From IMG/VR virus record IMGVR_UViG_3300016654_000295, positions 1-38,122 of that record: a DNA stretch of 38,122 bases; one strand, given 5' to 3'. Under the pieces are notes generated by a model. That model did no database searches and had not been told where the DNA came from. It was given only the letters and a program-made list of their open reading frames with translations. A program made the position numbers and the translations under genes. This document shows positions 1 to 13,687 of this stretch, in pieces. Each line of letters opens with the position of its first letter. Positions within the stretch are counted from its first letter, which is position 1. This DNA is from a virus (Duplodnaviria; Caudoviricetes).

Positions 1-717
1 ATGGAAGAATTTTCTGTACGGCATCGACGCTTTGTAGCCAACTACTTCGCTGGCAAGGTCAAAGAGCTTCGTTTTCAACTTGCAATTGTGGTTGCTGGCT
101 GTGACAAATCGCTTAGTACGTTCACAAGCGGGGGGGAGGTTTCGAGAGATAATCATCAAGCGGTCCTATACGGTTTCTCGGCATTTACAAATGTTATCCA
201 GACGTTGAAAGACGCAGTCAAGACGGTGACCAATGAACAGTTAGATTGGTCAAAAATAGAGCGACTTCGGCATGGTTCGTTTATGCGAAATGTCCGTAAT
301 GCTGCGACCCATGATGGAAACCCTGTCATCAGTGGATGGGCCGATGGACGTTATTTCGTGCCATCAAAGATCGTTCGAATAGATGGGTTTGGTAAGACCA
401 TAGAAATTCCAGCTCCTGCGGAAGATGTCAGAGCTATATGTTTGGATTTTGCTGAAGATTTTTGTCTTCTATTACGGGAGACATTGATAGCTGCGGGGGG
501 TATCGAGCACCTGAAAGGATCGAAATTTAGTATCGAAGAGGTGGAAGATGCATTTGCAAACTCCACGTTCATTCCCCCTTTTGCTAAGGAGCTTTTCGCT
601 CAAAATCGAGAAAAAATCGAAGCTGATCTCAAAGATTTACAGCATGATCCGATTGCCGATGCGGTCAAAGAATTAGGTGAAGTTATCCAATATTGCGATT
701 CGGTAAAGGGTGATTGA
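1..717 (+). CDS. Hypothetical cargo protein, possible HEPN-like RNase
   Basis: 238-aa AT-rich ORF convergent on the integrase; RNAATH matches Rx4H. Start lies at the window edge. Confidence 0.6.
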   Translation: MEEFSVRHRRFVANYFAGKVKELRFQLAIVVAGCDKSLSTFTSGGEVSRDNHQAVLYGFSAFTNVIQTLKDAVKTVTNEQLDWSKIERLRHGSFMRNVRNAATHDGNPVISGWADGRYFVPSKIVRIDGFGKTIEIPAPAEDVRAICLDFAEDFCLLLRETLIAAGGIEHLKGSKFSIEEVEDAFANSTFIPPFAKELFAQNREKIEADLKDLQHDPIADAVKELGEVIQYCDSVKGD

Positions 718-725
718 CGTCTGCG

Positions 726-754
726 ATGGCGGGGGCTAACCCCCCGTCATTTTG
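726..754. terminator. Intrinsic terminator between convergent genes
   Basis: ATGGCGGGGG-CTAA-CCCCCGTCAT hairpin followed by a short T run on +. Confidence 0.6.
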
Positions 755-1811
755 TGGGGCTTACAATTTCACCCACGCGGCGGTAGACCTTCTTGGTCAT
801 TTCTTCGGTGCTGTGGCCGAGCAAGCGGCTCGCGTGCGTCAGCTCGATCTCGCTGGCGGCTTTCGGTCGGATGTCCTTGAACTGGAATTGGCGGATCAGT
901 ACGGCCAGGGCTGCGTCGCCGTCGGCACCGGCCTTGATCGCGGCCTTCTCGCGGGCTTCGTCCCAGCGATTGCGCAACATCTGCTGGCTCATCCGTAGTC
1001 CGGATGTATTAGTGATCAGTTTCGATGTTTTTATGCCGTTGAGTGCTCGGCGCTCCTGTAGGTCGTTGATAAACGCACTCAGCCCTGACTCCACGCCATC
1101 TTCTTCCAGGCGCAGTCGCAGTTTCTTCGCGCTTTTTCCCTGTTTGACCATCAAGAACCCGGCGTTCAAATCAGTGGTTGCCACTTTCAGTACGTCGGCG
1201 GGGCGCTGGCCAGTCAAGTACGCCAGGTCCATAGCATCCTTGAGTTCCTGCACTGCCGCTTCGTACACCGCATTCCATACGATATCGCCGGCGTAATAAT
1301 CACGTGGTGTTTCCTTGTTGCGTCGAACGCCAAAGCAAGGGTTGGCGTTGCTGGTTAACCCCCACTCGCGCGCGATTGTGAACATATGCGACAGCAGTGC
1401 GATTTCGCGATTTGCCCTGACTTTTGCAGTCCTGGCGTCCCGATACTGCGCAACCACCTGGGGCGTTATCGAATCAATCGGGGCTTTCTCAAACGCTTTT
1501 CTGAGTTGTTTGAGTTCTTTCATATTGTCGGACTGGGTGCGCAGCCCTTTGGTGGGGATGATTTCCTTCAGGTACCTGTCGAACAAAAAGCCCAGCAAGT
1601 GGCTGGGCTTCGGTGGGGCTCTTCGCTCCAGCCTTGCCCATTCCACTTTCGCCTGGTCCAGGTCGCCGCCAAGTGGGATTTCCTTTCGCTTGCCGTTGGC
1701 GTCCCTACCGTTGTAGTAGTACCCAACCCAGATCGTGCCGTTCTTGCGCGGCTGACATCGTCGGATCATGCGCGGGGGTAGATCTCGGTTGGCTATCGAT
1801 TTCTGGCGCAT
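747..1811 (-). CDS. int: Phage integrase, tyrosine recombinase
   Basis: YLTGQR box I, FKDIR and LLGHS...VY box II, N-terminal arm-binding-type region. Confidence 0.95.
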   Translation of the reverse strand: MRQKSIANRDLPPRMIRRCQPRKNGTIWVGYYYNGRDANGKRKEIPLGGDLDQAKVEWARLERRAPPKPSHLLGFLFDRYLKEIIPTKGLRTQSDNMKELKQLRKAFEKAPIDSITPQVVAQYRDARTAKVRANREIALLSHMFTIAREWGLTSNANPCFGVRRNKETPRDYYAGDIVWNAVYEAAVQELKDAMDLAYLTGQRPADVLKVATTDLNAGFLMVKQGKSAKKLRLRLEEDGVESGLSAFINDLQERRALNGIKTSKLITNTSGLRMSQQMLRNRWDEAREKAAIKAGADGDAALAVLIRQFQFKDIRPKAASEIELTHASRLLGHSTEEMTKKVYRRVGEIVSPTK

Positions 1812-1814
1812 TGA

Positions 1815-2075
1815 TCAGCTCACGTTCGCCAGGTCGAGCGTCCAGGTTTCGGCCGCTGGGTTCACCGCAGAAGGGGTAACGCCCGCCAGTCTCATTCGGG
1901 CATACACTCGGCCCACGATTGGGCGGCGAGCACCAGTCAGAACATGTTCCCAGTTGTTGTCGGTCAACCACTGGATTTGCTTGGACGGGATCTGATAGCC
2001 GGTGATGGTGGCCAGCTCTTCGTCGGCCAGGGTCTCGCTTTGGAATTCCATCTTGTTATGGGTGGTGTTGTTCAT
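1815..2075 (-). CDS. DUF4224 family excisionase-like protein
   Basis: LADEELATITGY...QIQWL...RPIVGR pattern directly upstream of int; GAGGG RBS before ATG at 2075. Confidence 0.8.
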   Translation of the reverse strand: MNNTTHNKMEFQSETLADEELATITGYQIPSKQIQWLTDNNWEHVLTGARRPIVGRVYARMRLAGVTPSAVNPAAETWTLDLANVS

Positions 2076-2085
2076 GGCAAGTCCC

Positions 2086-2967
2086 TCATTCGCCACAGAA
2101 GCAGACGATCGCTTCGTCGTGGTCGGCGAACATGTCGAACTGGGTGTCGGAGTAGTCGATCATTTGCTGATAGCTGGGACGGTCGAACCGAAAGCGGGCG
2201 CCGTCGCCGGTGAACCTGCCGCCAGAAACCACCTCGCTTTCCATCCTGGCCCACCATTCCGCCTTGGGCCGGTCGCTGGCGATGATCGAGTAGACCTGTT
2301 TGGCGCCCTTGAGGAAGCAAAGGTCGCAGTTGCCTTCCAGAGTGCGGCCGTTGATTGTCGCCAACATCAGATCAAATGGTTGGCTGGACCAGAAGTCCGT
2401 CACGTCCTGCACGCCGACACCTGCATCCGCCAAGGGCATCACCATCGTGGCCCACTTGCTTTCGCTGGTGCTTTTGCGGTGCCTGATCTTCACGACCCGA
2501 TGCGGCTCGTCGGCGCGTATGCCTATCATCATGTCCACCGGCGCCGTCTCGGTCGAAAGGCCGAGGCTGCGCAGGTACTTGTGAATGATCCTGATTTTGA
2601 GGTCGATTGTGCAGAACCTGGTGACCGGGTTGGGCAAGTACTTACGTTTGTGTATTAGCGCTTCGAACGGCTCGCCTTGGCGGCTGGCAGTGGCGTAATC
2701 CACCACTGCAAAACCGGCGTCATCGTCGCGAAACTCCAGCCATACAATGGGCACTACCCAGCGTTCGGCGCATTCCCGGACAAACTCCAGGGTGGCCGGG
2801 TGTTCCTTCCCGGTATTGGCGAAGGTGACAACCAGATCGCTCAAGTCATCGTTGTTGTCCAGCACCTGGCGCAGCATGTAGGCGCTGGTACGGCCGCCGG
2901 AAAAACTGACTACGGTGGGCCCAGACAGTGAGTAATGCGTCTTTGGGTGGGGGGCTGCGCAGCTCAT
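2086..2967 (-). CDS. PAPS-reductase-like (PP-loop) protein with Cys cluster
   Basis: SFSGGRTS PP-loop, FANTGKEH, RFCTIDLK, GIRADE, GNCDLCFLK, C-terminal CFC. Start inferred from ATGA overlap with the upstream gene. Confidence 0.85.
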   Translation of the reverse strand: MSCAAPHPKTHYSLSGPTVVSFSGGRTSAYMLRQVLDNNDDLSDLVVTFANTGKEHPATLEFVRECAERWVVPIVWLEFRDDDAGFAVVDYATASRQGEPFEALIHKRKYLPNPVTRFCTIDLKIRIIHKYLRSLGLSTETAPVDMMIGIRADEPHRVVKIRHRKSTSESKWATMVMPLADAGVGVQDVTDFWSSQPFDLMLATINGRTLEGNCDLCFLKGAKQVYSIIASDRPKAEWWARMESEVVSGGRFTGDGARFRFDRPSYQQMIDYSDTQFDMFADHDEAIVCFCGE

Positions 2968-3509
2968 GCCGTGTGCCTCCGACGGTGATCGCTTTGCATC
3001 AAGGCCATCAGTTGCGAGAAGAACATCATCGATGCGGAATCCGCTGAAAGCGGGACGATGTTTTCCTTCATTGGTTGAACGCCGCGTAGGCAATCCCGGA
3101 TGCCGGGGTGTTCAGGCATCAAGTCGCGCCGCTCAGTGGCCAGGGCCACCATGTCGGCTTGTTTCACGCAGGCCGGGAGGTCGGGCTGGATGCTGAACCG
3201 TTCGCATACGGCGAGCCATATCTGGCGCTCGATCACCTGGTACTCGGGCATCACGGCCTTGAGTGGTCGGGTCATGTCGCCTATGTAGGCTTCGGTTGCG
3301 TCATGCAGTAGCGCCGCCAACTGGTGCTCAGCGGGTACCAGGCTGGCAACGATCATGCTGTGCTGCGCCACGCTGTAGTGCGTCCGGGTGTGTCCGTTGA
3401 AACGGCAGAGACGCGACAGAGCGTGAGCGATATCCACCGGCCTGATCATGGGTGCGGTCGGGCGTAGCAGGTCGAACTGCTGGCCGCTTTGGGTGAGGAT
3501 CCAAGTCAT
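2964..3509 (-). CDS. HD-domain phosphohydrolase (YfdR/YfbR-like)
   Basis: DIAHALSRLCRFNGH, YSVAQHS, LLHDATEAY, VKQADMVALATERRDL. Confidence 0.9.
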   Translation of the reverse strand: MTWILTQSGQQFDLLRPTAPMIRPVDIAHALSRLCRFNGHTRTHYSVAQHSMIVASLVPAEHQLAALLHDATEAYIGDMTRPLKAVMPEYQVIERQIWLAVCERFSIQPDLPACVKQADMVALATERRDLMPEHPGIRDCLRGVQPMKENIVPLSADSASMMFFSQLMALMQSDHRRRHTA

Positions 3510-3856
3510 GCTTCGTCCTCCACGATTGGTTGTGGAGGGTAGGCAGCTACCCACATCTTTGCGGCGAAGGCAGTGAGCTGGCGCCGTTGCTGGGTTGCTT
3601 TGGTCTGCATTAAGTCGCTACCCGGGAACGCTTGCCACGTTTCAGTGGCGATGCGCAGGGTGGTGCCGATGTTGGTCAGTAGTTCGTGATCTTCAATAGT
3701 GCAGGTCGGACGGCTTGTTTGTTGTTTGCGCGCTGCGTGAAGGCCGTTATAAAGACCGCGTGCATAGGCTTTCTTGCTTGCTTTGATCAGGTAGAAGGTG
3801 GTTGCGAGCCAGCCGACCAGCAGGCCGAAGGCGATGATGTAAGTTTCGATTTGCAT
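3506..3856 (-). CDS. Hypothetical protein with N-terminal transmembrane segment
   Basis: GAGG RBS, hydrophobic N-terminus, ATGA coupling to the HD gene. Confidence 0.7.
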   Translation of the reverse strand: MQIETYIIAFGLLVGWLATTFYLIKASKKAYARGLYNGLHAARKQQTSRPTCTIEDHELLTNIGTTLRIATETWQAFPGSDLMQTKATQQRRQLTAFAAKMWVAAYPPQPIVEDEA

Positions 3857-3930
3857 GTGCTGTATGCCTCGATTAGAGCCCGCCGCCGGACAGTTTTGGT
3901 GAGAGGACGGCGGCGGGGTGTTGCAGGTGG

Positions 3931-4740
3931 TTAACCCAGGTTGAAGGTGCCGATAGTCAAGGTCGCGGAACCGCCGACTTCTTTTTGAACGACTTGTTTG
4001 AACTCTTGCGCCAGGTCTTCGCGCAGCTGTGCTTCGCCAATCCAGCGCAGGCGGAGTGCGGGTTTATCGCCGCCAGTCAGTACGGCTACGCGCAAGCGGA
4101 TGGTGCGTGCGGTCAACCCTTCGTAAGGAGCTACGGTGAACAGGAATTCAGCCGGCAGACCTTCTGAGGACTTGGCCTCGATCTGGTCCATCGCCGAACG
4201 GGAAGCGCTCATGTCGCCAACTACGTGTTCGCTCTTGCGTGCTTGCTCGATGCTGATGGAGCGAATCGCTCCGGCAGCCTTGCGCAGATCGATCTCTTTG
4301 TCGTCAGCGTCCAAGGCTTTCAGGTTCGGTGCCCAGTCCTCGATCCAGTCGCTGAGATCCTTCTGGGCGTGCTGGCGTTGTGCGGCGCATTCAAGTGCAA
4401 GGAACGCGGCAGTCTTCTTCAGGCCGAGGGTTGCGGTGTAATCACCATGACCCGGCTCCGCTGCGTCACCGAGGTTGAAGTACACCGTGCAGGCCATGGC
4501 GTCACCGTCTACAAAGCCCACAGCAGCTGGGCCTTTTGCAGCGACTACGTAGTCGGCGAAGTCTTTCAGCGAGTGGGTGGTCAGCGAGCCACGGAAGCGG
4601 CTACGCAGCTCTTGAAACTTTTCGATACTGTGGATCTTGACGTCGGCCGGCAGAGCCAGAACTGGCGTGAAGGTGCCCAACGATTTGGCGTGGGCGAGCA
4701 GGGCAGTGTCTTGAATCAGTTGAATTGCACGAGCTTCCAT
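3931..4740 (-). CDS. yfdQ: DUF2303 (YfdQ-like) protein
   Basis: RSRFRGSLTTHSLKDF, QKDLSDWIEDW and PYEGL motifs; synteny with YfdP- and YfdR-like genes. Confidence 0.8.
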   Translation of the reverse strand: MEARAIQLIQDTALLAHAKSLGTFTPVLALPADVKIHSIEKFQELRSRFRGSLTTHSLKDFADYVVAAKGPAAVGFVDGDAMACTVYFNLGDAAEPGHGDYTATLGLKKTAAFLALECAAQRQHAQKDLSDWIEDWAPNLKALDADDKEIDLRKAAGAIRSISIEQARKSEHVVGDMSASRSAMDQIEAKSSEGLPAEFLFTVAPYEGLTARTIRLRVAVLTGGDKPALRLRWIGEAQLREDLAQEFKQVVQKEVGGSATLTIGTFNLG

Positions 4741-4784
4741 TGGATCTATTCCTGTTTTGGTGAGAGGTATGGAGTGGTGAAGCG

Positions 4785-5135
4785 TTACGACTTGGCGTGA
4801 ATCGGTGCATCGTCGCGGGAGAACAACTGATCGGCGTGAGGTGTCTCAGGGAACAGCGTGAGGCAGCCGCCAGATCCGACATGCATAGGTGTGTCGAGGG
4901 TGGTGTCTTCGCTGCGACTACCGCGCTTGGTCGGTACCTTGTAGGCGAGCTTGTGATTGACGGTCACCTGACTGCTGTCGGCGATCTGTTTCAAGGTGAA
5001 GGTGAGCGTGACGGTGCCGACCTTCTTGTTGTCGACCACGCCCGCCGCGACTTCTGAGAGTGCGTGGCCGATTTGGTTGGCGAAGATGCCGGCATTCAAT
5101 TCGCTAATAAACTCTGCGGTATCAGTGGGTTTCAT
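4785..5135 (-). CDS. YfdP-like phage protein
   Basis: FISELNAGIF...ALSEVAAGV...PTKRG...DTPMHVG pattern; directly upstream of the DUF2303 gene. Confidence 0.75.
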   Translation of the reverse strand: MKPTDTAEFISELNAGIFANQIGHALSEVAAGVVDNKKVGTVTLTFTLKQIADSSQVTVNHKLAYKVPTKRGSRSEDTTLDTPMHVGSGGCLTLFPETPHADQLFSRDDAPIHAKS

Positions 5136-5195
5136 GTGCTGTGCCTCATTGGTGAGTTGCTGTTTGCCCCTGGGCGGCAGGGGCTGCCGTTTGAA

Positions 5196-5438
5196 TCAGG
5201 CCGCTTGCTTCGTCGCTTGGGCGTCGAGGTAGTCGGCCAGGTCGTGCAGGTAAACGACTGGCTTGGCGCGGGCCGAGCAGTGCAGCCGCTTGACCACCAG
5301 GGCGATCCGACCGGCCTTGATTTCGCTCAGCAAGTAGCGGTCGGTGCGGATGTGCGTGAAGTACTGTTCACGCACCGCGGTCAAGCTTGGGCACGGCGTG
5401 GCGAACTGGCGCCGGAGTTGTTCCAGGGTGGTGGTCAC
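5196..5438 (-). CDS. prtN: Pyocin activator PrtN family protein
   Basis: 80 aa with QYFTHI...IKAGRI...VYLHDLADYLD pattern. Confidence 0.75.
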   Translation of the reverse strand: MTTTLEQLRRQFATPCPSLTAVREQYFTHIRTDRYLLSEIKAGRIALVVKRLHCSARAKPVVYLHDLADYLDAQATKQAA

Positions 5439-5809
5439 GCGGATTCCTCCCCATACCCCTCCTTTCGGGGCACCAGCTTGAGGCGGATCAGTTCGGCGAG
5501 ACCTTCTTTGCTCTTGCCCTTGGCCGCTGCCAAGACGTTACCCATTGCGTCCGCAACGACGGCGCCGTAGGGGTATTCCGGGCACTTGACCGGGGTCACA
5601 TAGGCGATCTGGCCGTCAGCGATAACTGCGTCGACGCAGCGGAACACCTCGGCCAGCTCGACCGACACGCACGGCAATGCCTCCAGCAGCGCGACAGCTT
5701 CGGCCGAGGCGCCAATCAGCGTGGCGCGGCTGATCACCGTCGGGTGGTTGAGGAACATTGGCACCAGCTTCAAGGCGCCTACAGCGGAGTTGATGGCGTT
5801 CGGCTTCAT
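5435..5809 (-). CDS. Hypothetical phage protein
   Basis: 124-aa ORF with 4-nt overlaps to both neighbours. Confidence 0.75.
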   Translation of the reverse strand: MKPNAINSAVGALKLVPMFLNHPTVISRATLIGASAEAVALLEALPCVSVELAEVFRCVDAVIADGQIAYVTPVKCPEYPYGAVVADAMGNVLAAAKGKSKEGLAELIRLKLVPRKEGYGEESA

Positions 5810-6081
5810 GCTGCGGCGTCCTTCTTGGTGATGGTGATATCCAGCTTTTTAGCGATCCACTCGACCCCCGCTTCCTTCACCATCACGACGGCGTAATGCA
5901 CGGGCTTGCCGATCGTTGGGTTCCAGCGCACGCGAGCGTCCGAAAACAGGTAGCCGCGTTCGCGGTGAGCGCTGGCCAGGTCGCCTGATGAATTGATCAC
6001 GCCGAGTTCCCGCAACCTGGTGCGGAAGGCGCGGGGCTTGAGCCCGAGCAAAGCGGCGGTTTGATCCAGGGTGCGGTTCAT
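5806..6081 (-). CDS. Phage antirepressor KilAC (ANT)-like DNA-binding protein
   Basis: TAALLGLKPRAFRTRLRELG...ERGYLF...GVEWIAKKL pattern. Confidence 0.7.
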   Translation of the reverse strand: MNRTLDQTAALLGLKPRAFRTRLRELGVINSSGDLASAHRERGYLFSDARVRWNPTIGKPVHYAVVMVKEAGVEWIAKKLDITITKKDAAA

Positions 6082-6091
6082 GGCTGCGACC

Positions 6092-6673
6092 TCAGGCGGT
6101 TATATGTTCGGATTGCTGCTGGCTGCGGCGAACCATGAGGAACACCTCATCCAGCGAACGCAGGAACTCTTCCACCGTGCCGTAGTTGGTCAGCGTCAGA
6201 TCATCCTTATGAGCTGCAATCCCAGCCTCGCTGATATGCGGGTTTACGCCTTGTGCGTCGGGCCGAAAAATATGGATGACCGTGCCGCCGCGCCGACGAA
6301 TCAGGTGTGCTTCGTTTTCGAAGCGCACGTCGCTAATGACGAAGCCCAGCACCGCGCCCAGTGCCTTCGTCATGTAGTCGAGGTTCTGTTCGGCGAGCTT
6401 CACCCAGACATCTGGGTGCACGGTGTTGCGTGCCCACTCGGTGCCCATCGACTGCATCAGTTGACGGGGCGAGCAGTCCAGCCAAGCTAGTGGCTGCTCC
6501 TTGCGGTCGCCTTCAAAGTCGGTAGGGTCAAGGTTGAAGATCGCCATCAGGCCATCGCGGAGCGGATCGGCGAAGGCGTAGTGCTCCAGCAGGTAAGTAC
6601 CAACCAAGTGTTCGGCGGCGGTCGATTTGCCGGAGCGGGCGCGGCCGGTGAGGCCAATGAGGATCGGCTTCAT
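6092..6673 (-). CDS. Deoxynucleoside monophosphate kinase (T4 gp1-like)
   Basis: GLTGRARSGKST P-loop, FADPLR, PRQLMQSMGTEWAR, ISDVRFENE, HISE. Confidence 0.9.
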   Translation of the reverse strand: MKPILIGLTGRARSGKSTAAEHLVGTYLLEHYAFADPLRDGLMAIFNLDPTDFEGDRKEQPLAWLDCSPRQLMQSMGTEWARNTVHPDVWVKLAEQNLDYMTKALGAVLGFVISDVRFENEAHLIRRRGGTVIHIFRPDAQGVNPHISEAGIAAHKDDLTLTNYGTVEEFLRSLDEVFLMVRRSQQQSEHITA

Positions 6674-7005
6674 GCTGCGGCATCCATGTCGAGGTAGCTT
6701 TGGGTCCAGGCCAGTAGGTCTATTAGCTCTTGACGGGCCAACTCTTCGGTTATGCGCTCTGGAAAACGGTGGGTGGATGTGAATGCGGCAGACTTATGCG
6801 GATGTTTTGGGCGGTCCTTGGCATCGTAGTCGTAATTTGTCGGGCGCAGCGTCACGTCGATGTCGCCAACGTGGCCGGAGAGACCGTAGAAGGCATGCCA
6901 ATTGCCCTGAGCGTTGATCAAGAGGCAAGTGGACAGGATCTGCAGCATCAACTCTTCGGTGGTGGGTTTAGTGCTGGGGGTGTTGCTGTGCTGTGTCGTT
7001 TGCAT
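6670..7005 (-). CDS. Hypothetical protein, first gene of leftward early operon
   Basis: 111-aa ORF just downstream of the predicted PL; ATGA overlap with the kinase gene. Confidence 0.75.
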   Translation of the reverse strand: MQTTQHSNTPSTKPTTEELMLQILSTCLLINAQGNWHAFYGLSGHVGDIDVTLRPTNYDYDAKDRPKHPHKSAAFTSTHRFPERITEELARQELIDLLAWTQSYLDMDAAA

Positions 7006-7038
7006 GGTTCGTACTCTTTGGTGAGAGGAGTACGAGCG

Positions 7039-7098
7039 AGACTATACATACGTTTTGATATGGTCAATACGTTAGCGAATAAATATACGTTTTAGGAT
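7039..7098 (-). promoter_or_regulatory. Leftward early promoter (PL-like) with three operator-like sites
   Basis: Minus-strand TTGACC-N17-TAGTCT (7067-7039). Sites ATACGTTTTGATAT (7048), ATACGTTAGCGAAT (7067) and ATACGTTTTAGGAT (7085) resemble ATAC-N6-GTAT. Confidence 0.65.
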
Positions 7099-7206
7099 GA
7101 TTGAGGCGATGCCACTTTCGGGGAGGGCGTTACAGCTGGCGCTCAGTGGCTGAGGCGGGCTGTCAGATAGATCCTGGCGATCTGGGGTGAATAGTGCGCC
7201 GTAGGC

Positions 7207-7707
7207 TTATTTTGGAGGCCCTACGAATAGCAGTTTCACTTCGGACAGACGATAGGTGCTAAGCGTCTCAATAAGGTCGGGATGATCGTCGTAGATCTCG
7301 AAAACGTATTGATGGATGAAGCCTTGGATAGCCTGAGCGAGCAGCTTTTCTTGCTCAAGCGACGTGAAAGTTTTCGTGCCGACATCATCGACAACCCTTA
7401 TTTCCAGTTTAGTTCTTACCTTGGCGGGCTTGCTGGGCGGGCGTTTTGTAGCGATGGGGGGGCTATCGTTGCCTGTGCTGATCGGCTCTCTCGGTGAGGG
7501 GGCGGAGTCCTGTCTGCCGGTCCATAGCCAGGTTGCAGTGACAGATAGCGCCTTGGCTATTTTCTCGATGTTCTGCTGTCGGGGGCTCTGCGACTCGCCC
7601 GACATTATGCGGTGAATGGTCGGTTGCGGAACGCCTGAGAGGCGCCCGAGTTCCGTTTGCGATAGACCTAGCTCGGTCATTCGGTCGGCTATTCGTTTGC
7701 GAAGCAT
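7207..7707 (-). CDS. cI: CI-like repressor, XRE helix-turn-helix, no S24 peptidase domain recognisable
   Basis: LSQTELGRLSGVPQPTIHRIMSG HTH; divergent from cro. Start moved to 7707 because the longer ORF overlaps cro and the promoters. Confidence 0.85.
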   Translation of the reverse strand: MLRKRIADRMTELGLSQTELGRLSGVPQPTIHRIMSGESQSPRQQNIEKIAKALSVTATWLWTGRQDSAPSPREPISTGNDSPPIATKRPPSKPAKVRTKLEIRVVDDVGTKTFTSLEQEKLLAQAIQGFIHQYVFEIYDDHPDLIETLSTYRLSEVKLLFVGPPK

Positions 7708-7726
7708 CTGGGCACCCTGATTAAAA

Positions 7727-7773
7727 ATACACGACCGTATTCTATTGCATGGGTGTATACGTGTGCGTATGAT
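7727..7773 (+). promoter_or_regulatory. Rightward early promoter (PR-like) with operators
   Basis: TTGCAT-N17-TATGAT (7745-7773); palindromic ATAC-N6-GTAT at 7727-7740 and 7757-7770. Confidence 0.7.
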
Positions 7774-7803
7774 CCAAAACGAATAAACGCATTGGCAGCC
7801 ACG

Positions 7804-7998
7804 ATGAATATCCAAGAAATGCTGAAAGAGCTTCTTAGCCGAGGGCATACCCAGCGCGGTATTGCCGTCCAGATAGGCACCACGCAGCCAACCATTTTTC
7901 GGGCTGTCAATGGTGCGGATGTTAGATACGAATTAGGCAAGGCAATTGAGAATTTCTATACGCAAGAGATCGAGTCAGCTCGACTGAAACGCGCATAG
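7804..7998 (+). CDS. cro: Cro-like HTH protein
   Basis: 64 aa, TQRGIAVQIGTTQPTIFRA HTH, divergent from cI. Confidence 0.85.
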   Translation: MNIQEMLKELLSRGHTQRGIAVQIGTTQPTIFRAVNGADVRYELGKAIENFYTQEIESARLKRA

Positions 7999-8006
7999 AA
8001 GGTGCC

Positions 8007-8233
8007 GGACTGGGGCCTCTCACCAAAGATCCCCCAGCCCAGCGGTGGCGATACCAGCACATACATACCGCCACTTGTAACACCGGCCTGAAACCTCTCA
8101 CCAAAGAAATGCCAGGCCGGTTGCAGCGAGATACATAGGAAGCGTGTAAGTCGCTACATAGCGCGTCGGTCCGGGACCTCTCACCAAGAAATCCCCCGGA
8201 CCGACTGGAACGATGAACAGCACATGCACATCG
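8007..8233. ncRNA. Putative structured RNA/DNA element: array of six hairpins with alternating loop motifs
   Basis: Three inverted repeats with different stems enclose CCTCTCACCAA (8016, 8094, 8177). They alternate with three smaller hairpins, two of which enclose CAGCACAT. Function and strand unknown. Confidence 0.6.
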
Positions 8234-8298
8234 GTCGTGGTCGTAGGATAGGGCGTGCCCCTTTCTGTGGCTAGACCGTAAACGAGGAATTTACGGTT

Positions 8299-8787
8299 AT
8301 GAGTCGAACAGAACAGTCACCGGCCACTGCGCCGGTTCTTCCACTTCGCAAAGCAATCTATCGAGCGGCGCATGATTACCACGGCGGGGTCACCGCTCTG
8401 GCGCTCGATATGGTGATGGATTACGACAGCCTGCAAAAGAAGGTCAAACACGACTTTGAACAGCGCTGGCTCGATCCTGATGAGCTTGAAGAGTTGATAC
8501 GCCTGACGGGCAATCCGTTGTTGTTGGATGCGCTCATGCGGCCCGCTGGTATGGTCTGGTACAAACCCGAAGCAGCCGCCCCGACGAAGACCGCGCTCTT
8601 GGCGGTCAGTAAGGTGCTGCATGAGACGGGACTTTTTGTATCCAGCATGCACGATGGTGCTTCCGATAATGTCTGGGAGCTGCACGAAGTGCAGCTGCTG
8701 GAGAAGCACGGCACCGATGTTATTCGTGCGGTGCTGGGCATTATGGCCGGTGCCCGTGCCGCGATGGAGGCCCGCCAGCATGGTTGA
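8299..8787 (+). CDS. Phage regulatory CII family protein
   Basis: AAHDYHGGVTALA...LQKKV...LIRLTGNPLLLDAL pattern; position after cro; GAGGA RBS. Confidence 0.8.
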   Translation: MSRTEQSPATAPVLPLRKAIYRAAHDYHGGVTALALDMVMDYDSLQKKVKHDFEQRWLDPDELEELIRLTGNPLLLDALMRPAGMVWYKPEAAAPTKTALLAVSKVLHETGLFVSSMHDGASDNVWELHEVQLLEKHGTDVIRAVLGIMAGARAAMEARQHG

Positions 8788-8983
8788 CATCGTAGATACC
8801 GCAAACGACCAGGTCGACTACTTCCTGCAGGTCGCACTGGAGCGCCGTCAGCGCCCAACTTGCGCCGTCAGCGCCCAATTCTGTGAGGATTGCGACGAAC
8901 CTATCCCGTTACTTCGCCAACAGACGATTCAGGGTTGTGCTACCTGCGTCAGTTGCCAGGGGTTGCGGGAGCGGCGGCGATGA
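8780..8983 (+). CDS. TraR/DksA C4-type zinc finger (PtrB-like)
   Basis: MVDIVDTA N-terminus, CEDC...CVSCQ; GGAGG RBS. Confidence 0.9.
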   Translation: MVDIVDTANDQVDYFLQVALERRQRPTCAVSAQFCEDCDEPIPLLRQQTIQGCATCVSCQGLRERRR

Positions 8984-11670
8984 GTGAGCAATCCACCAGC
9001 ACAGCGATATCGTCCTGGGCTCGCCGCTACATCGAAACCTTTAACCTTGCCCTGGTCCCGATTGACCCGGGCGAAAAGGCACCGAAGGGCTTGGGCTGGA
9101 ACAAGCCGGGCGGTTACATCACCGACCCGGCTGCAGCCGAAACATTCTGGCAACGCAACCCCAACCACAACCTGGGCGTAGTGCTCGGGCCAAGCCGCGT
9201 CTGCTCGTTGGACGTCGACGATGTGCAGTGGACACGGTTTGTGTTGTTCGACCAGATGGGCCTCGATCTGGATGCCATGGCGGTGGTCTATCCGACCATC
9301 GTGGGCAATCCGTTGCGGTTCCGCGTGCTGTTCAAAATGCCGGATGACATTGATCTGACGCGCCACTCCCTTTCCTGGCCCAATGAGAAAGACCCCGATG
9401 GGTCGATTCACAAGGCGTTGATGGCTCGGGCGAAGGCGTCGAAAGAGCAGGGGGATGCTGCTGGTGAGGCGGCAGCGAAAGCCGAGGCTGAGGAATACAA
9501 GCGCTTCACGGTGTTTGAGCTGCGCGCCGGACTGGTGCAGGACGTATTCCCGCCATCTATCCATCCGGGTACTGGCAAGCCGTACACCTGGCGCACTCCG
9601 CCGAATGCAGCCGATGGTCTGCCGGTGCTTACCACCGAGCTGCTGAACATTTGGCAGAATTGGGATGTCTTCAAACGCAACGCTGAGGCCGCGTGCCCTT
9701 GGGCGCCGAAACCGAAGAAGCCCGCCGCGAAACCTATCAAGCGTGCTCCACCTGCTGACGGCAAACCCTCGGTGATTGATGAGTTCAACCGGTGCCACGA
9801 TGTGGAAGAGCTGTTGCGTGCCCACGATTACATCAAGCGCGGTAACAAATGGCTGTATCCCCACAGCAGCACTGGGCTGCCAGGTGTGACGGTCACCGAC
9901 CGCAAGGTCTATTCGCACCACGGCGCGGATCCGCTGGCCAATGGTCACCAGAATGACGCCTTTGAGGTGTTTTGCCTGCTGGATCACGATGGTGACCAGT
10001 CGAAGGCGGTGAAGGACGCCGCTCGGATGTTGGGGATGCAGCATTCCACGCGCCCAGCCCCACAAGATCTTCCCCCGGCCCCATCGGCGGATGCGGGCGA
10101 GCTGGACTCAGTCGCCACGCCCAGTGAGGCCGCTCCTGCTGCTGACGGGGGTGCGGGGGAACAGCTGACCTATGAGCAAGTACTCCGGCGGTACGTGTTG
10201 GTCGAGGGCACCACGCAGGTGTGGGACCTCGACAAAGCCCGGGTGATGAAGAAAACCGCGTTTGAGGCCCGTGTCGGTAAGCCGTTGGCGAAACAGTGGA
10301 TGGACGACACCCTCAAAAAGCTGATCTCTGATGACAAGGTTAAGGAGATCGAACAGGCCCGAAAGATGGCGGGCAAGAAGGGCGGTGCGCTGAACCTGGA
10401 GCCGATTGAGCGCTACGTATATATCGATGGGACCAAGGATGTTTGGGACCGTGAAAAAAAGCGACGCGTTGCCGAGGGTGCGGTAAAGATGGCCCTCGGC
10501 GATATGTACGGCATGTGGTTGAACAGTCCGGAACGGCGCGTGGTCGACGTGGAGAACATCGTGTTCGACCCGACGATGACCAAGGATCCCAACGTCTATA
10601 TCAACACCTTCGACGGATTGCCGATGGAGCCCAACCGCGATGACGCGGCGTGCGAGAACCTGCGGTGGTTGATTTCGTTCCTGTGCAACCATGATCAGTC
10701 GTCGCGGGATTGGCTAGTGAAGTGGTTGGCTTACCCGTTGCAGCACCTGGGTGCCAAGATGGATACGGCGGTGCTGGCTCACTCGACCATGGAGGGCTCG
10801 GGCAAAAGCCTGCTGTTCGCCGATGCGTTCGGGCTGCTTTACGGTCAGTACGCCGCCACGGTCGGGCAGACTCAGCTCGAAAGCAACTTCAACGCGTGGC
10901 AAAGCCGCAAGCTGTGGTCAGTGTTTGAGGAAGTCGTAAGCCGCGACCAGCGTTACAACCAGGTCGGCAAGATCAAGCACCTGGTCACCGGCAAGACGGT
11001 GCGGATGGAGTCGAAGTTCATCAACGGTTGGGAGGAAGCCAACCACATGAATGCTGCGTTCCTCAGCAACGAGATTATGCCCTGGCCGATCGCGCCCAGT
11101 GATCGGCGCATGTTAGTGCTGTGGCCGATGGAGACACTGCCGGTTGAGCGTCAAAAGGCCGTGGGCCGTGAGCTGCTGAATGGTGGTGTCGAGGCGCTGT
11201 ACGCATGGTTGTTGTCCATTAACCTGGGGGACTTTGACCAGCGCACCAGGCCACCCAGCACTGATGCGCGCGAGCGGTTGGTAGCGTTGAGTCGGGCCAG
11301 CTGGCAGACTTTCCTGTTCCTCTGGCAATACGGCGAGCTTGGGCGCGATATGTGGGGCGCCTGTTTGTCGACCGACCTCTATGCGATGTTTCTGGAGTGG
11401 TGTCATCGCAACAAAGAGCATGTGATGAGTCAGACGAAGTTCTCATTGTTCATCAGCTCGGAGGTGGATAAGACCCGCGCCATCCCCTGGACTGACGGCA
11501 GCAATCGCAAGTTCGGGGCGTTCTTCTTTCCGCGTGATGACCAGGCTTCCCAGCCCCCATCAGTCAGTTCGGCCGACCTGGGCAAGGCGGTGGTTGCTTG
11601 GCGGGCGGCTGCGCGCCTGGCGGGGTGGAACGTCGACAATTGGGACCATATCAAGGCGGCTGCAGCATGA
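8980..11670 (+). CDS. Bifunctional DNA primase/polymerase fused to SF3-type helicase (DUF5906-like)
   Basis: N-terminal KAP...W, NLGV...LDVD, PPSIHPGTGKPYTW; C-terminal GSGKS Walker A, VFEE Walker B, FLSN, DRR. Confidence 0.9.
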   Translation: MSEQSTSTAISSWARRYIETFNLALVPIDPGEKAPKGLGWNKPGGYITDPAAAETFWQRNPNHNLGVVLGPSRVCSLDVDDVQWTRFVLFDQMGLDLDAMAVVYPTIVGNPLRFRVLFKMPDDIDLTRHSLSWPNEKDPDGSIHKALMARAKASKEQGDAAGEAAAKAEAEEYKRFTVFELRAGLVQDVFPPSIHPGTGKPYTWRTPPNAADGLPVLTTELLNIWQNWDVFKRNAEAACPWAPKPKKPAAKPIKRAPPADGKPSVIDEFNRCHDVEELLRAHDYIKRGNKWLYPHSSTGLPGVTVTDRKVYSHHGADPLANGHQNDAFEVFCLLDHDGDQSKAVKDAARMLGMQHSTRPAPQDLPPAPSADAGELDSVATPSEAAPAADGGAGEQLTYEQVLRRYVLVEGTTQVWDLDKARVMKKTAFEARVGKPLAKQWMDDTLKKLISDDKVKEIEQARKMAGKKGGALNLEPIERYVYIDGTKDVWDREKKRRVAEGAVKMALGDMYGMWLNSPERRVVDVENIVFDPTMTKDPNVYINTFDGLPMEPNRDDAACENLRWLISFLCNHDQSSRDWLVKWLAYPLQHLGAKMDTAVLAHSTMEGSGKSLLFADAFGLLYGQYAATVGQTQLESNFNAWQSRKLWSVFEEVVSRDQRYNQVGKIKHLVTGKTVRMESKFINGWEEANHMNAAFLSNEIMPWPIAPSDRRMLVLWPMETLPVERQKAVGRELLNGGVEALYAWLLSINLGDFDQRTRPPSTDARERLVALSRASWQTFLFLWQYGELGRDMWGACLSTDLYAMFLEWCHRNKEHVMSQTKFSLFISSEVDKTRAIPWTDGSNRKFGAFFFPRDDQASQPPSVSSADLGKAVVAWRAAARLAGWNVDNWDHIKAAAA

Positions 11671-11683
11671 GTCCGACAAAAAG

Positions 11684-11971
11684 TGTGTTGGGTGTGTTGG
11701 GTGTGTGTTGGGTTGGTTTTCGATACCCCACACAGTTTGAAGCCTTCTATTTCGCGGCTTTCCGCCTTGTGTGTTGGGTGTGTTGGGTTTGGCGTCGCGC
11801 ACGCGCATGGGCGACGTTATTTGAATCCATGGCAGCAACATTTTTTTCTCATGCGAGAACCGTTAAACCCAACACACCCAACACACTCAACACATTTGAT
11901 TTAAAGCTATTGAATTTAAAGGGTTTTAGGTGTGTTGGGTTTGTGTTGGGTATGGCGTTTTTTGTGTCGGG
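11684..11971. repeat. TGTGTTGGG iteron cluster, putative replication origin
   Basis: Direct copies at 11684, 11693, 11704, 11770, 11779, 11931, 11942 (variant 11963); inverted copies at 11868, 11877 (variant 11886); AT-rich spacer ~11895-11920; directly after the primase-helicase. Confidence 0.75.
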
Positions 11972-11998
11972 TTGGGTTTTGAGCGTGGGAGCGGGGCG

Positions 11999-12481
11999 AT
12001 GATCGAAGAAATGGAAACTCTGTTGAAGCATTGGGGCGAGCAAACGCGGCGCTGTGGCTCTGCCGGTGGTTTGGGCAGCCCGATGGCCACGATCATGGAG
12101 TGGGGTGGATGCGCGCCGCGTGGCACGCCTGGGTCGCGGATCCTTCTTGATGGCGGCGCTGGCATTGATGCTGTTGCGCAAGAAGTCGCGGCGGCGCTGG
12201 CTGAGGTGAGCCGTCAAGATGAACGCGGTCAAATGCTGGAGCGTCTGGCGGTGCTACGTTATACCGATGACTCGGCGCCGACGTGGTTGATGCAATTGCA
12301 CCAGGTCGGGTCTCAGTCCCGAGCGAAGCAGACCTACTATGACTTGGTGCATAGCCTGCACCTGCGACTTCTACAGGCGTTGGCTGATCGGTCTGGGGCT
12401 CGTAAATGGCTTACCGCTGGTCAGGGAGCTTTGCCTCAAAGTCTCCTCAAAGCTGCGTCAAAGTTGCGTCGAGTCAGTTAA
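11999..12481 (+). CDS. PA0613-like putative late regulator / Q-like antiterminator
   Basis: LLKHWGEQ...GGLGSPMATIMEWGG pattern; sits in the Q position before a terminator and the holin. Confidence 0.65.
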   Translation: MIEEMETLLKHWGEQTRRCGSAGGLGSPMATIMEWGGCAPRGTPGSRILLDGGAGIDAVAQEVAAALAEVSRQDERGQMLERLAVLRYTDDSAPTWLMQLHQVGSQSRAKQTYYDLVHSLHLRLLQALADRSGARKWLTAGQGALPQSLLKAASKLRRVS

Positions 12482-12608
12482 CCGAAATTGCCCCCTTTTC
12501 GGTTCCGTACTCAGGGGGTAAAAAGTCCCCACGATATGGAATTTGCGCCTTGGCGCTGACCTCGCACGTGCTGTGCAGCTTCACCCGGTTTCCCTAGACC
12601 GGTCACTT

Positions 12609-12636
12609 AACCCCGCTTCGGCGGGGTTTTCTTTTT
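12609..12636 (+). terminator. Intrinsic terminator before late genes (tR'-like)
   Basis: AACCCCGC-TTCG-GCGGGGTT followed by TTCTTTTT. Confidence 0.85.
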
Positions 12637-12670
12637 CTGCCCGATGGGTGTCTGCAATGGAGTTATCAGC

Positions 12671-13036
12671 ATGGGCGAGCCAGCGAGCACGGCTGCAACT
12701 GTTGTCGTGGCCGGCGGTGCCGGTGCTGCTGTAACGGGTTTGTTTACCGGAATTGATGCACTCGCCGTGATCGGTGCACTTGCCGGTGCGCTGGTGTTCT
12801 TCACCACCACCGAAGAGTTGCCGGTCTGGAAACGGGTGGTGTTCCTTTTGGTGTCCTTCGTCATGGGCTATCTGTTCGCCCCAAGCCTCGGCGAGTTGGA
12901 GTTGTGGGGCATTCGGCCGTTCAAGCACTCCGGGCCAGCTGCATTCGGTGCGTCGGTGCTGGTGGTCACGGTCGCACTCGCCATCATCAAGCGACGCGGT
13001 ATCGATGCCGAACCGCATGGGAGGCAGGATGGATAG
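12671..13036 (+). CDS. Putative holin
   Basis: Several hydrophobic segments, IGALAGALVFF, charged C-terminus; GGAG RBS. Confidence 0.75.
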   Translation: MGEPASTAATVVVAGGAGAAVTGLFTGIDALAVIGALAGALVFFTTTEELPVWKRVVFLLVSFVMGYLFAPSLGELELWGIRPFKHSGPAAFGASVLVVTVALAIIKRRGIDAEPHGRQDG

Positions 13037-13319
13037 TCATGTGATTCAGGAAGTGCTAACCCAGTTCACGTTCTGGCTGTGCGTGGCACTGTTCGTCCGG
13101 CTGTTCACCTTCCGGCGCCGTGGTGCCCGTTTCCGCAGAGACATGAGTTGCCTTGCCTGGTTGGTGATGGTCGCGTCCGGCGCAGTCATCGTCTACATCG
13201 GCAAGGGTCAGTTGATCATGCCGCGTAACTCGTGGCCGTTGGTGCTGCTGCTGGCGGTGTTCGTTGGGTCGGTGTGCCAGAGTTCGGGCAACCTGGCCCG
13301 GGTGTGGAGAGTGGGCTGA
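13029..13319 (+). CDS. Second holin-like membrane protein (DUF754-like)
   Basis: RLFTFRRRGARFRR...LAWL...GNLARV, three hydrophobic segments. Confidence 0.75.
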   Translation: MDSHVIQEVLTQFTFWLCVALFVRLFTFRRRGARFRRDMSCLAWLVMVASGAVIVYIGKGQLIMPRNSWPLVLLLAVFVGSVCQSSGNLARVWRVG

Positions 13320-13687
13320 TGAGTAAGGTGTCTGATGACCGGCGCGGCAGCAGCACCGAACGTGGTTACGGGTACAAATGGCAGAAGTCCCGCGACGGGC
13401 ACCTGCGTGAGAATCCCTATTGCACGATGTGCTCGACCGACCAACGTCCTGTCGCCGCCAGCGTTGTCGACCACAAGGTTGCGCCCAAGCTCAAGGACGC
13501 CAAGGACAGCGGTGATCCGGAGCGTCTCAAGGCTGCCTGGAAGTTGTTCTGGAATCCAGCAAACTGGGCAAGCCTCTGTAAGTTCTGCCACGACTCGACC
13601 AAGCAGCGGATGGAGCGGACCGGCACGGTCCCTGGCTGCAACCCTGACGGCCGCCCGGTGGACCCTGGGCATCACTGGAATCGATGA
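13319..13687 (+). CDS. Packaging-associated HNH endonuclease (HK97 gp74-like)
   Basis: RGYGYKWQ, PYCTMC, VVDHK, NWASLCKFCHDS; upstream of terS. Confidence 0.9.
   Translation: MSKVSDDRRGSSTERGYGYKWQKSRDGHLRENPYCTMCSTDQRPVAASVVDHKVAPKLKDAKDSGDPERLKAAWKLFWNPANWASLCKFCHDSTKQRMERTGTVPGCNPDGRPVDPGHHWNR

What the first reader, a model, noticed from the sequence alone, without database searches (positions are those of the whole stretch)
3855..7037. The same two motifs sit next to four start codons of the leftward operon and flip orientation at the cI/cro switch
Seen on the minus strand: CCTCTCACCAAA at 7017-7028, 4756-4767 and 3895-3906, plus a shorter CTCACCAA at 5149-5156. Each is intergenic, inside an inverted repeat and within ~50 nt upstream of an ATG. 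In three cases ACAGCAC follows downstream (6988-6994, 5134-5142, 3855-3863), twice running into the start codon (ACAGCACATG). At 7007-7037 the likely RBS is in the stem. All seven copies read in the sense of the local early transcript. Inference: a bipartite cis-site network linked to the 8007-8233 array, controlling translation or termination. Candidate readers are the 6670-7005 protein (lambda N position), the CI C-terminal domain, the PrtN-like protein or an antisense RNA.
Basis: partly seen in the sequence, partly recalled or inferred. Interest (0 to 1): 0.85.

Follow-up and report, generated by a model that had tools for sequence, protein, structure and literature searches.

The report
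Prophage antisense RNAs address early genes
Four early genes of this Pseudomonas-type prophage carry the same short sequence tags at their starts, and the complements of those tags sit in the hairpin loops of two predicted phage RNAs, which likely pair with the tags to silence these genes and so would add an RNA layer to the phage's choice between dormancy and lysis.

Summary
The motifs are real. Motif A occurs 6 times in the window against 0.65 expected. In 61 relatives, 150 of 155 left-operon copies lie just upstream of a start codon and none on the other strand. A's core changes in concert between the cro-cII hairpins and the first leader (112 of 113 loci), while the proposed protein readers do not track it. 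A conserved leftward promoter begins right at the array, so its complement is predicted to be transcribed, and the cro-proximal hairpin tolerates G-U only on that strand (30 vs 5). Best reading: a c4/CI-like antisense brake on early-left translation. The scan reached this reading before on other genomes (8 notes). Added here: the late-promoter leader (12540-12636) carries the exact complement of motif B in 113 of 116 phages and covaries in two lineages; promoter-proximal array units favour the sense strand (13 vs 2), suggesting a decoy role. No transcript was shown; a loop-target wobble test gave no support (11 vs 13). No Rfam family or paper matched.

The parts
7007..7037 (-). First left leader hairpin; motif A in the loop (7017-7028; 14-nt exact match to array loops), ribosome site partly in the stem
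6988..6995 (-). Motif B in codons 4-6 of the first left gene
6670..7005 (-). First left gene; a fusion of the first codons of the conserved 63-69 aa small protein (phrog_13491) to the next gene
5133..5156 (-). Short motif A (5149-5156) and motif B running into the start codon of the YfdP-like gene 4785-5135
4756..4767 (-). Motif A, unstructured, 16 nt before the DUF2303 (YfdQ) start at 4740; no motif B
3879..3917 (-). 10-bp GC hairpin with motif A (3895-3906) in the loop
3854..3863 (-). Motif B running into the start codon of gene 3506-3856
7207..7707 (-). cI-like HTH repressor
7801..7998 (+). cro-like HTH gene
8004..8074 (.). Array unit 1: A hairpin 8004-8043 (G-U tolerated on the minus strand in relatives) and B hairpin 8045-8074
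8082..8160 (.). Array unit 2: A hairpin and a second hairpin with a degenerate B loop
8165..8233 (.). Array unit 3: A hairpin 8165-8205 (G-U tolerated on the plus strand in relatives) and B hairpin 8211-8233
8003..8238 (-). Predicted antisense RNA (about 236 nt if it ends after unit 1): six hairpins with A' and B' loops; start inferred 7 nt after the -10 box
8245..8273 (-). Leftward sigma70-type promoter: -35 at 8268-8273, -10 at 8245-8250 (pE/pRE position)
8275..8297 (.). Inverted repeat (8-7-8) next to the -35 box; candidate CII site, also covers the cII ribosome site
8299..8787 (+). CII of the CP76 (phage 186) family
   Evidence: PF06892, E 4.7e-18
11984..12481 (+). Gene in the late-regulator (Q) position; phrog_4300, function inferred from position only
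12514..12535 (+). Conserved late-promoter-like element
12540..12636 (+). Late leader RNA (about 95 nt): hairpins, B' (complement of motif B, core 12568-12575) and an intrinsic terminator at 12609-12636

Best explanation
Motifs A and B mark the start regions of four early-left genes, and they are likely pairing sites for phage antisense RNAs that would block translation of those genes. The main RNA is predicted to start at a conserved leftward promoter just upstream of cII, probably switched on by CII as in phage 186, and to read the cro-cII array backwards so that its loops show A' and B'. A' would give first, phage-specific loop contact upstream of the ribosome site; B' would cover the spacer and start codon (or codons 4-6), and loss of translation of the first small gene would likely be polar on the operon (antirepressor-domain, excisionase-like, YfdP/Q genes). 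A second RNA, the short leader between the late promoter and its terminator, carries B' alone and would likely hold the same genes down in the lysogen. Shown: motifs, positions, conservation, concerted change, promoter-like boxes, stem wobble bias. Inferred: transcription, pairing, repression, CII control, timing.
For: Position: 150 of 155 left-operon copies of the A core lie within 60 nt of an SD+ATG frame, 0 on the other strand, against 388 of 2440 random places (61 loci). Concerted change: first-leader and array cores share at least 6 nt in 112 of 113 loci over at least six core types; exact array-to-leader match averages 11.6 nt within a phage against 8.1 across phages (60 permutations at most 8.7; up to 15 nt for A, 16 for B). 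Promoter: TAnnnT at 17 bp in 75 of 96 haplotypes, a TA-led hexamer at 18 bp in 20, 1 miss, with a variable spacer. Strand: cro-proximal/single hairpin 30 A-C against 5 G-T cells and no other mismatch on plus (29 stems); copies right of the promoter, which the leftward RNA cannot hold, show the reverse (12 G-T, 1 A-C); cUUCGg loops on minus in L190 and L262. The four motif-bearing starts rank 1-4 of 121 ORF starts for duplex energy (partly by construction). Proteins do not track the core. Late leader: B' in 134 of 140 leaders and 113 of 116 sampled by promoter pattern; it changes with B in the PG1 and L245 lineages; terminator 15 G-T, 0 A-C on plus.
Against: No transcript of either RNA was shown. 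The wobble test between array loops and targets gave 11 antisense-compatible against 13 reverse transitions. Promoter-proximal hairpins of multi-unit arrays favour the plus strand (13 G-T, 2 A-C) and B hairpins show no bias (27:32 and 15:22). A leftward promoter is expected here anyway for cI establishment, so it does not prove a role for the loops. The U run after unit 1 is weak in this window. In P. aeruginosa-type phages the shared core is only 6-7 nt and internal sites often mismatch. Late B' stems lean to minus (1 G-T, 6 A-C; minus folds better in 75 of 104), and late B' mismatches B at its edge in the L225 and L175/L176 groups. Counts are of related loci, some the same contig fetched twice, so they overstate independent events.
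Confidence: 0.62

Rival explanations
1. All A/B copies are sense-strand binding sites for a phage RNA-binding protein (N/nut-like antitermination or translational control); the array is nutR-like or a sponge, and the minus-strand bias of hairpin 1 only reflects a terminator for the leftward transcript.
For: All seven copies are in the sense of the local early transcript, at nutL/nutR-like places; unit-3 and right-of-promoter hairpins favour plus; a small protein sits in the N position in 164 of 167 records; wobble test neutral.
Against: No tested universal protein tracks the core: PrtN-like and KilAC-like 100%, CII 97-99%, Q-position 99%, small protein 97-98% identical across cores; very different small proteins share one core (L190 vs L191/L194); this window lacks the small protein; matches of 12-16 nt exceed a usual loop motif; the late leader holds the complement, not the motif.
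Confidence: 0.17
2. Antisense pairing is real but activates or antiterminates: A' opens the first-leader hairpin that hides the ribosome site, as IsrK does for orf45.
For: The 7005 ribosome site is partly in the stem whose loop holds A; IsrK precedent (PMC4825925, passage).
Against: B' covers the spacer and start codon at two genes and codons 4-6 at the first; two A sites are unstructured; a CII-type promoter points to the lysogenic branch.
Confidence: 0.09
3. RNA-only, put-like antitermination elements read by host RNA polymerase, or plain C/A-rich translation enhancers copied by duplication.
For: Two-hairpin unit right after cro and a hairpin at the 5' end of the left transcript; both motifs are C/A-rich.
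Against: A host reader does not explain at least four different cores among closely related P. aeruginosa-type phages, changed in concert, nor the late complement.
Confidence: 0.07
4. The motifs are double-stranded DNA operators (CII, CI or PrtN-like protein) and orientation is incidental.
For: Short repeated words near promoters and starts; B occurs in both orientations in the genome.
Against: Strict strand rule in the left operon (155 to 0), display in loops of stems with compensatory changes, identical proteins with different cores.
Confidence: 0.05

Closest known systems
c4 antisense RNA of P1/P7 (Rfam C4, RF01695) and its a1b1/a2b2 targets
   Same: Two loop elements pairing with a bipartite target at the start of a small first gene upstream of an antirepressor; phage-specific sequences (mechanism recalled, not read here).
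   Different: No Rfam match; loop sequences differ from the C4 alignment rows seen; encoded antisense in the cro-cII gap rather than in the target operon; four or more targets; 1-4 loop units.
CI RNA of P4-like phages (seqA/seqC targets)
   Same: Short antisense RNA enforcing lysogeny by pairing with two sequences (PMC4825925, passage).
   Different: CI is processed from the transcript it controls and flanked by its targets; here the RNA is in another unit and its targets are translation starts kilobases away.
StxS of Shiga-toxin phages (pR'-tR' leader sRNA)
   Same: Short RNA between the late promoter and its terminator with a regulatory seed (PMC7547250, abstract and introduction start).
   Different: StxS targets stx1AB and host rpoS; the leader here is complementary to the phage's own early-gene starts. 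Hfq binding untested.
Phage 186 CII/pE and lambda pRE, paQ, OOP
   Same: CP76-family CII next to a leftward promoter; 186 CII activates pE for cI expression (PMC8538670, passages); lambda aQ and OOP are antisense RNAs of the switch (PMC12197685, passages).
   Different: aQ and OOP act in cis on one gene; here the 5' part of the pE-like transcript is a structured multi-target trans regulator.
Lambda N/nut and HK022 put (recalled)
   Same: Paired elements after the leftward promoter and after cro; phage-specific loops.
   Different: Extra copies at internal start codons; no N-like protein tracking the loop; complement on other RNAs.

Membership tests
C4 antisense RNA (RF01695) | Match to the C4 or c4-2 covariance model | tested here: not met
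   No hit to E 5 in window 1-13500; none at gathering in L164, L205, L190
C4 / P4 CI antisense RNAs | Two loop elements complementary to bipartite targets in the phage's own early mRNA | tested here: met
   (complementarity only)
C4 / P4 CI antisense RNAs | Encoded in sense within the operon it controls, between its targets | tested here: not met
   Array lies in the cro-cII gap, targets 1-4 kb away in the left operon; feature as described
C4 / P4 CI antisense RNAs | Mature RNA made by processing (RNase P, recalled) | not testable with these tools
   Only a hint: ACC follows the minus-strand hairpin in 23 of 36 single-unit hairpins
C4 / P4 CI antisense RNAs | Represses translation or causes termination in vivo | not testable with these tools
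   needs reporters
Lambda N/nut antitermination | Phage-specific N protein that tracks the loop sequence | tested here: not met
   the small protein has no Pfam family and only unnamed Atlas neighbours
Lambda N/nut antitermination | boxA next to the hairpin | not tested
   no dedicated scan run
HK022 put | Element read by host polymerase, hence not phage-specific in sequence | tested here: not met
   several concerted cores among close relatives
StxS-like late-leader sRNA | Short unit between late promoter and intrinsic terminator | tested here: met
   (U run in 111 of 138)
StxS-like late-leader sRNA | Expressed in lysogens, Hfq-bound, regulates in trans | not testable with these tools
   no stranded reads
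186-type CII/pE | CP76-family CII with an inverted repeat upstream of a leftward promoter | tested here: met
186-type CII/pE | CII activates the promoter | not testable with these tools
   inferred from family and layout

The most novel reading that the evidence does not exclude
A three-RNA toggle runs beside the protein switch: the CII-driven antisense leader (A'+B') and the always-on late leader (B') silence early-left genes, while sense copies of the same loops on the rightward lytic transcript (1-4 units, some right of the promoter) act as decoys that soak up both RNAs once cro-cII is transcribed. The A core is a swappable address that gives each phage a second, repressor-independent immunity type.
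Probability: 0.25. Interest if true: 0.88.

Novelty: new variant of a known kind. Interest (0 to 1): 0.7.

Why it matters
If true, a widespread group of Pseudomonas temperate phages, including ones of P. aeruginosa, couples the lysis-lysogeny decision to a multi-target RNA circuit that no Rfam family or paper found here describes. It would give a function to the usually ignored 5' part of the establishment transcript and to the late-promoter leader, link late and early control directly, and supply natural orthogonal RNA-target pairs that can be tested with simple reporters.

Tried and rejected
Rfam: nothing relevant. Generic promoter scan found no promoter in 3000-9000; the promoter rests on conservation, and its -35 box was part of my anchor, so only the -10 result is independent. 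Loop-versus-target wobble test: no support (83 pairs with at most 2 mismatches, some probably chance sites). First automatic stem count gave 76 A-C vs 21 G-T for first-leader hairpins; this came from one conserved mismatch and flank extension, and a fixed-register recount gave 14 G-T, 7 A-C, 8 other. The left-internal fixed-register count caught only 5 stems and is uninformative. RNA runs, for relative L167 not this window: 7 contig sets and 1 raw-read run (0 reads). One contig (X10) ends at L167:6929, 1 nt from the predicted start, and runs left through cro into cI; a minor X9 contig ends at 6938; six main contigs run across the site. Contigs show no strand or start: a weak hint only. GTDB pattern scan was too loose: of 120 loci, 19 had the full layout (17 labelled Pseudomonas or Aquipseudomonas, 2 unplaced MAGs). 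An apparent third late covariation (L399) was a match inside a gene and was dropped. The late-promoter scan gave no phages lacking the system, so co-occurrence could not be tested. L154-L162, mostly distant DUF2303 loci, lacked the motifs. Eight paper searches found no description; most subscription papers are outside the library. No fold or complex prediction was run.
Full report
Setting. The window is a 38-kb lambdoid (pro)phage contig. Its closest named relatives are Pseudomonas phages. Region 700-12500 holds integrase, an early-left operon (PAPS-reductase-like, HD hydrolase, DUF2303/YfdQ, YfdP-like, PrtN-like/excisionase, KilAC-like, dNMP kinase), cI, cro, a CP76-family CII, TraR/DksA, primase and a gene in the Q position.

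Observation. All coordinates check to within a base. Motif A has 6 exact 11-mer copies against 0.65 expected. B alone is not above chance in the window. Two of the four left A sites are in strong hairpins and two are not. The 8004-8233 array is three units of an A hairpin plus a second hairpin (B loop in units 1 and 3); it folds on both strands, better on minus (z -5.8 against -3.8).

Conservation. In 80 relatives found with CII the A/B pair follows the cro stop in nearly all, as one or three units, whatever the cI/cro type. The layout extends to P. aeruginosa phage Lodos and Stutzerimonas phages PG1 and pAN and to further groups. In 61 loci with enough left arm, 150 of 155 matches of the A core on the mRNA strand lie within 60 nt upstream of an SD+ATG frame, none lies on the other strand, and random places pass 388 of 2440 times. 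The core varies by lineage (CTCTCAC, CTCTAC, CTCTGAC, CTCTAAC, CTCTATT, CTTACC, CCTACC) and the first leader shares at least 6 nt of core with the phage's own array in 112 of 113 loci. Exact matches within a phage average 11.6 nt for A against 8.1 across phages (lineage structure inflates the contrast). In pAN and PG1 different array loops match different leaders. Loci are related and some contigs were fetched more than once, so these counts are not independent events.

Who reads the motif. A host factor does not explain concerted, phage-specific cores. Among proteins present in most of 105 full loci, none tracks the core: PrtN-like and KilAC-like proteins are 100% identical, CII 97-99%, the Q-position protein 99% and the small N-position protein 97-98% identical across different cores. 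This window's cI form has homologues in 6 of 105 loci. The small protein (phrog_13491; no Pfam family) is the first gene in 164 of 167 records but is deleted here, leaving the 6670-7005 fusion; this phage may therefore be a variant or defective. A few specificity residues cannot be excluded by identity alone.

Leftward transcript. Of 186 CII-anchored loci 180 have a -35-like box beside an inverted repeat; among 96 haplotypes 75 have TAnnnT 17 bp away, 20 a TA-led hexamer at 18 bp and 1 neither, with a variable spacer. In the window the boxes are 8268-8273 and 8245-8250, so the start falls near 8238, just before the B' hairpin. CII is of the phage 186 family, which activates pE to express cI (PMC8538670, passages seen); activation here is inferred. 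Stems of the single or cro-proximal A hairpin show 30 A-C, 5 G-T and no other mismatch on plus, with 8 compensatory pair types (29 stems), which is G-U on minus. Hairpins to the right of the promoter show the reverse (12 G-T, 1 A-C), a built-in control. Against a simple picture, the promoter-proximal hairpin of multi-unit arrays also favours plus (13 vs 2) and B hairpins are neutral: the array seems selected to fold on both transcripts. A direct wobble test of loop-target pairing was neutral (11 vs 13). With the predicted loops the four motif-bearing starts rank first to fourth of 121 ORF starts, largely by construction. RNA contigs from a relative gave one end 1 nt from the predicted start and six that run across it: no proof.

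Late leader. It carries the exact complement of the B core. This holds in 134 of 140 leaders of my loci (about three of these matches look spurious) and in 113 of 116 leaders sampled by promoter pattern alone, while the flanks diverge. In the PG1 lineage both late B' and two left B sites change together, and in the L245 lineage late B', array B and left B all change; the L225 and L175/L176 groups mismatch at the edge. Predicted duplexes are -24, -20 and -16 kcal/mol with the three B sites and -8 with the B-less YfdQ start. The small B' stem itself leans to minus (1 vs 6), so a sense B copy on an opposite transcript is not excluded. StxS is the precedent for a regulatory pR'-tR' RNA (PMC7547250, abstract and start of introduction).

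Mechanism. Most likely the tags are antisense targets: A' contacts first and sets phage specificity, B' covers the start region, translation of the first small gene and three internal genes falls, and lysogeny is favoured when CII is high; the late leader would keep B-tagged genes low afterwards (0.62). Sense copies on the rightward transcript may act as decoys (novel case, 0.25). Protein reader 0.17, activation 0.09, put-like or enhancer 0.07, DNA operator 0.05.

Comparison and novelty. It works like c4/CI antisense control but fails membership: no Rfam match, different loops (supplement rows of PMC2864571; main-text passages) and different location (PMC4825925 passage). Details of c4, N/nut and put mechanisms are recalled. 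Eight searches of the open library found no description; PMC7067206 and PMC12197685 were seen as passages only; bioRxiv supplements and large predicted-RNA catalogues were not seen and could list the motif. Earlier notes of this scan reached the same antisense reading on other genomes; my reading was noted before I saw them and they are not independent evidence. The late leader had no look-alike among them. Verdict: real, conserved, new variant of a known kind; interest 0.70.

Noticed in passing
window 12514-12636 (+): Late-promoter leader RNA carrying the complement of motif B; not in Rfam or earlier scan notes
   Followed up: yes
window 6670-7005 (-): Internal deletion fuses the start of the near-universal small protein phrog_13491 to the next gene; L018/L019 have a similar fusion to the dNMP kinase
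   Followed up: partly
L190-L198, L259, L261, L270, between promoter and cII: Extra A and B hairpins to the right of the leftward promoter, with sense-strand G-U bias; the inverted repeat stays beside the promoter although cII has moved about 150 nt away
   Followed up: partly
window 8001-8003 and relatives: On the minus strand the single or cro-proximal hairpin (about 12 bp) is usually followed by ACC, resembling a minimal RNase P substrate; speculation
   Followed up: partly
window 7040-7100 and 7750-7790: Repeated ACGTAT boxes around a leftward promoter-like site (about 7063-7040) and near the cI/cro starts; candidate repressor operators
   Followed up: no
window 11680-11960: Direct and inverted GTGTGTTGG repeats just after the primase gene forming long hairpins; candidate replication origin
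   Followed up: no
window 1-717 (+): 238-aa ORF beyond the integrase with no Pfam or PHROG family; possible accessory gene
   Followed up: no
L167:6386-6800: An accessory stretch is inserted between cro and the array in this P. aeruginosa-type group
   Followed up: no
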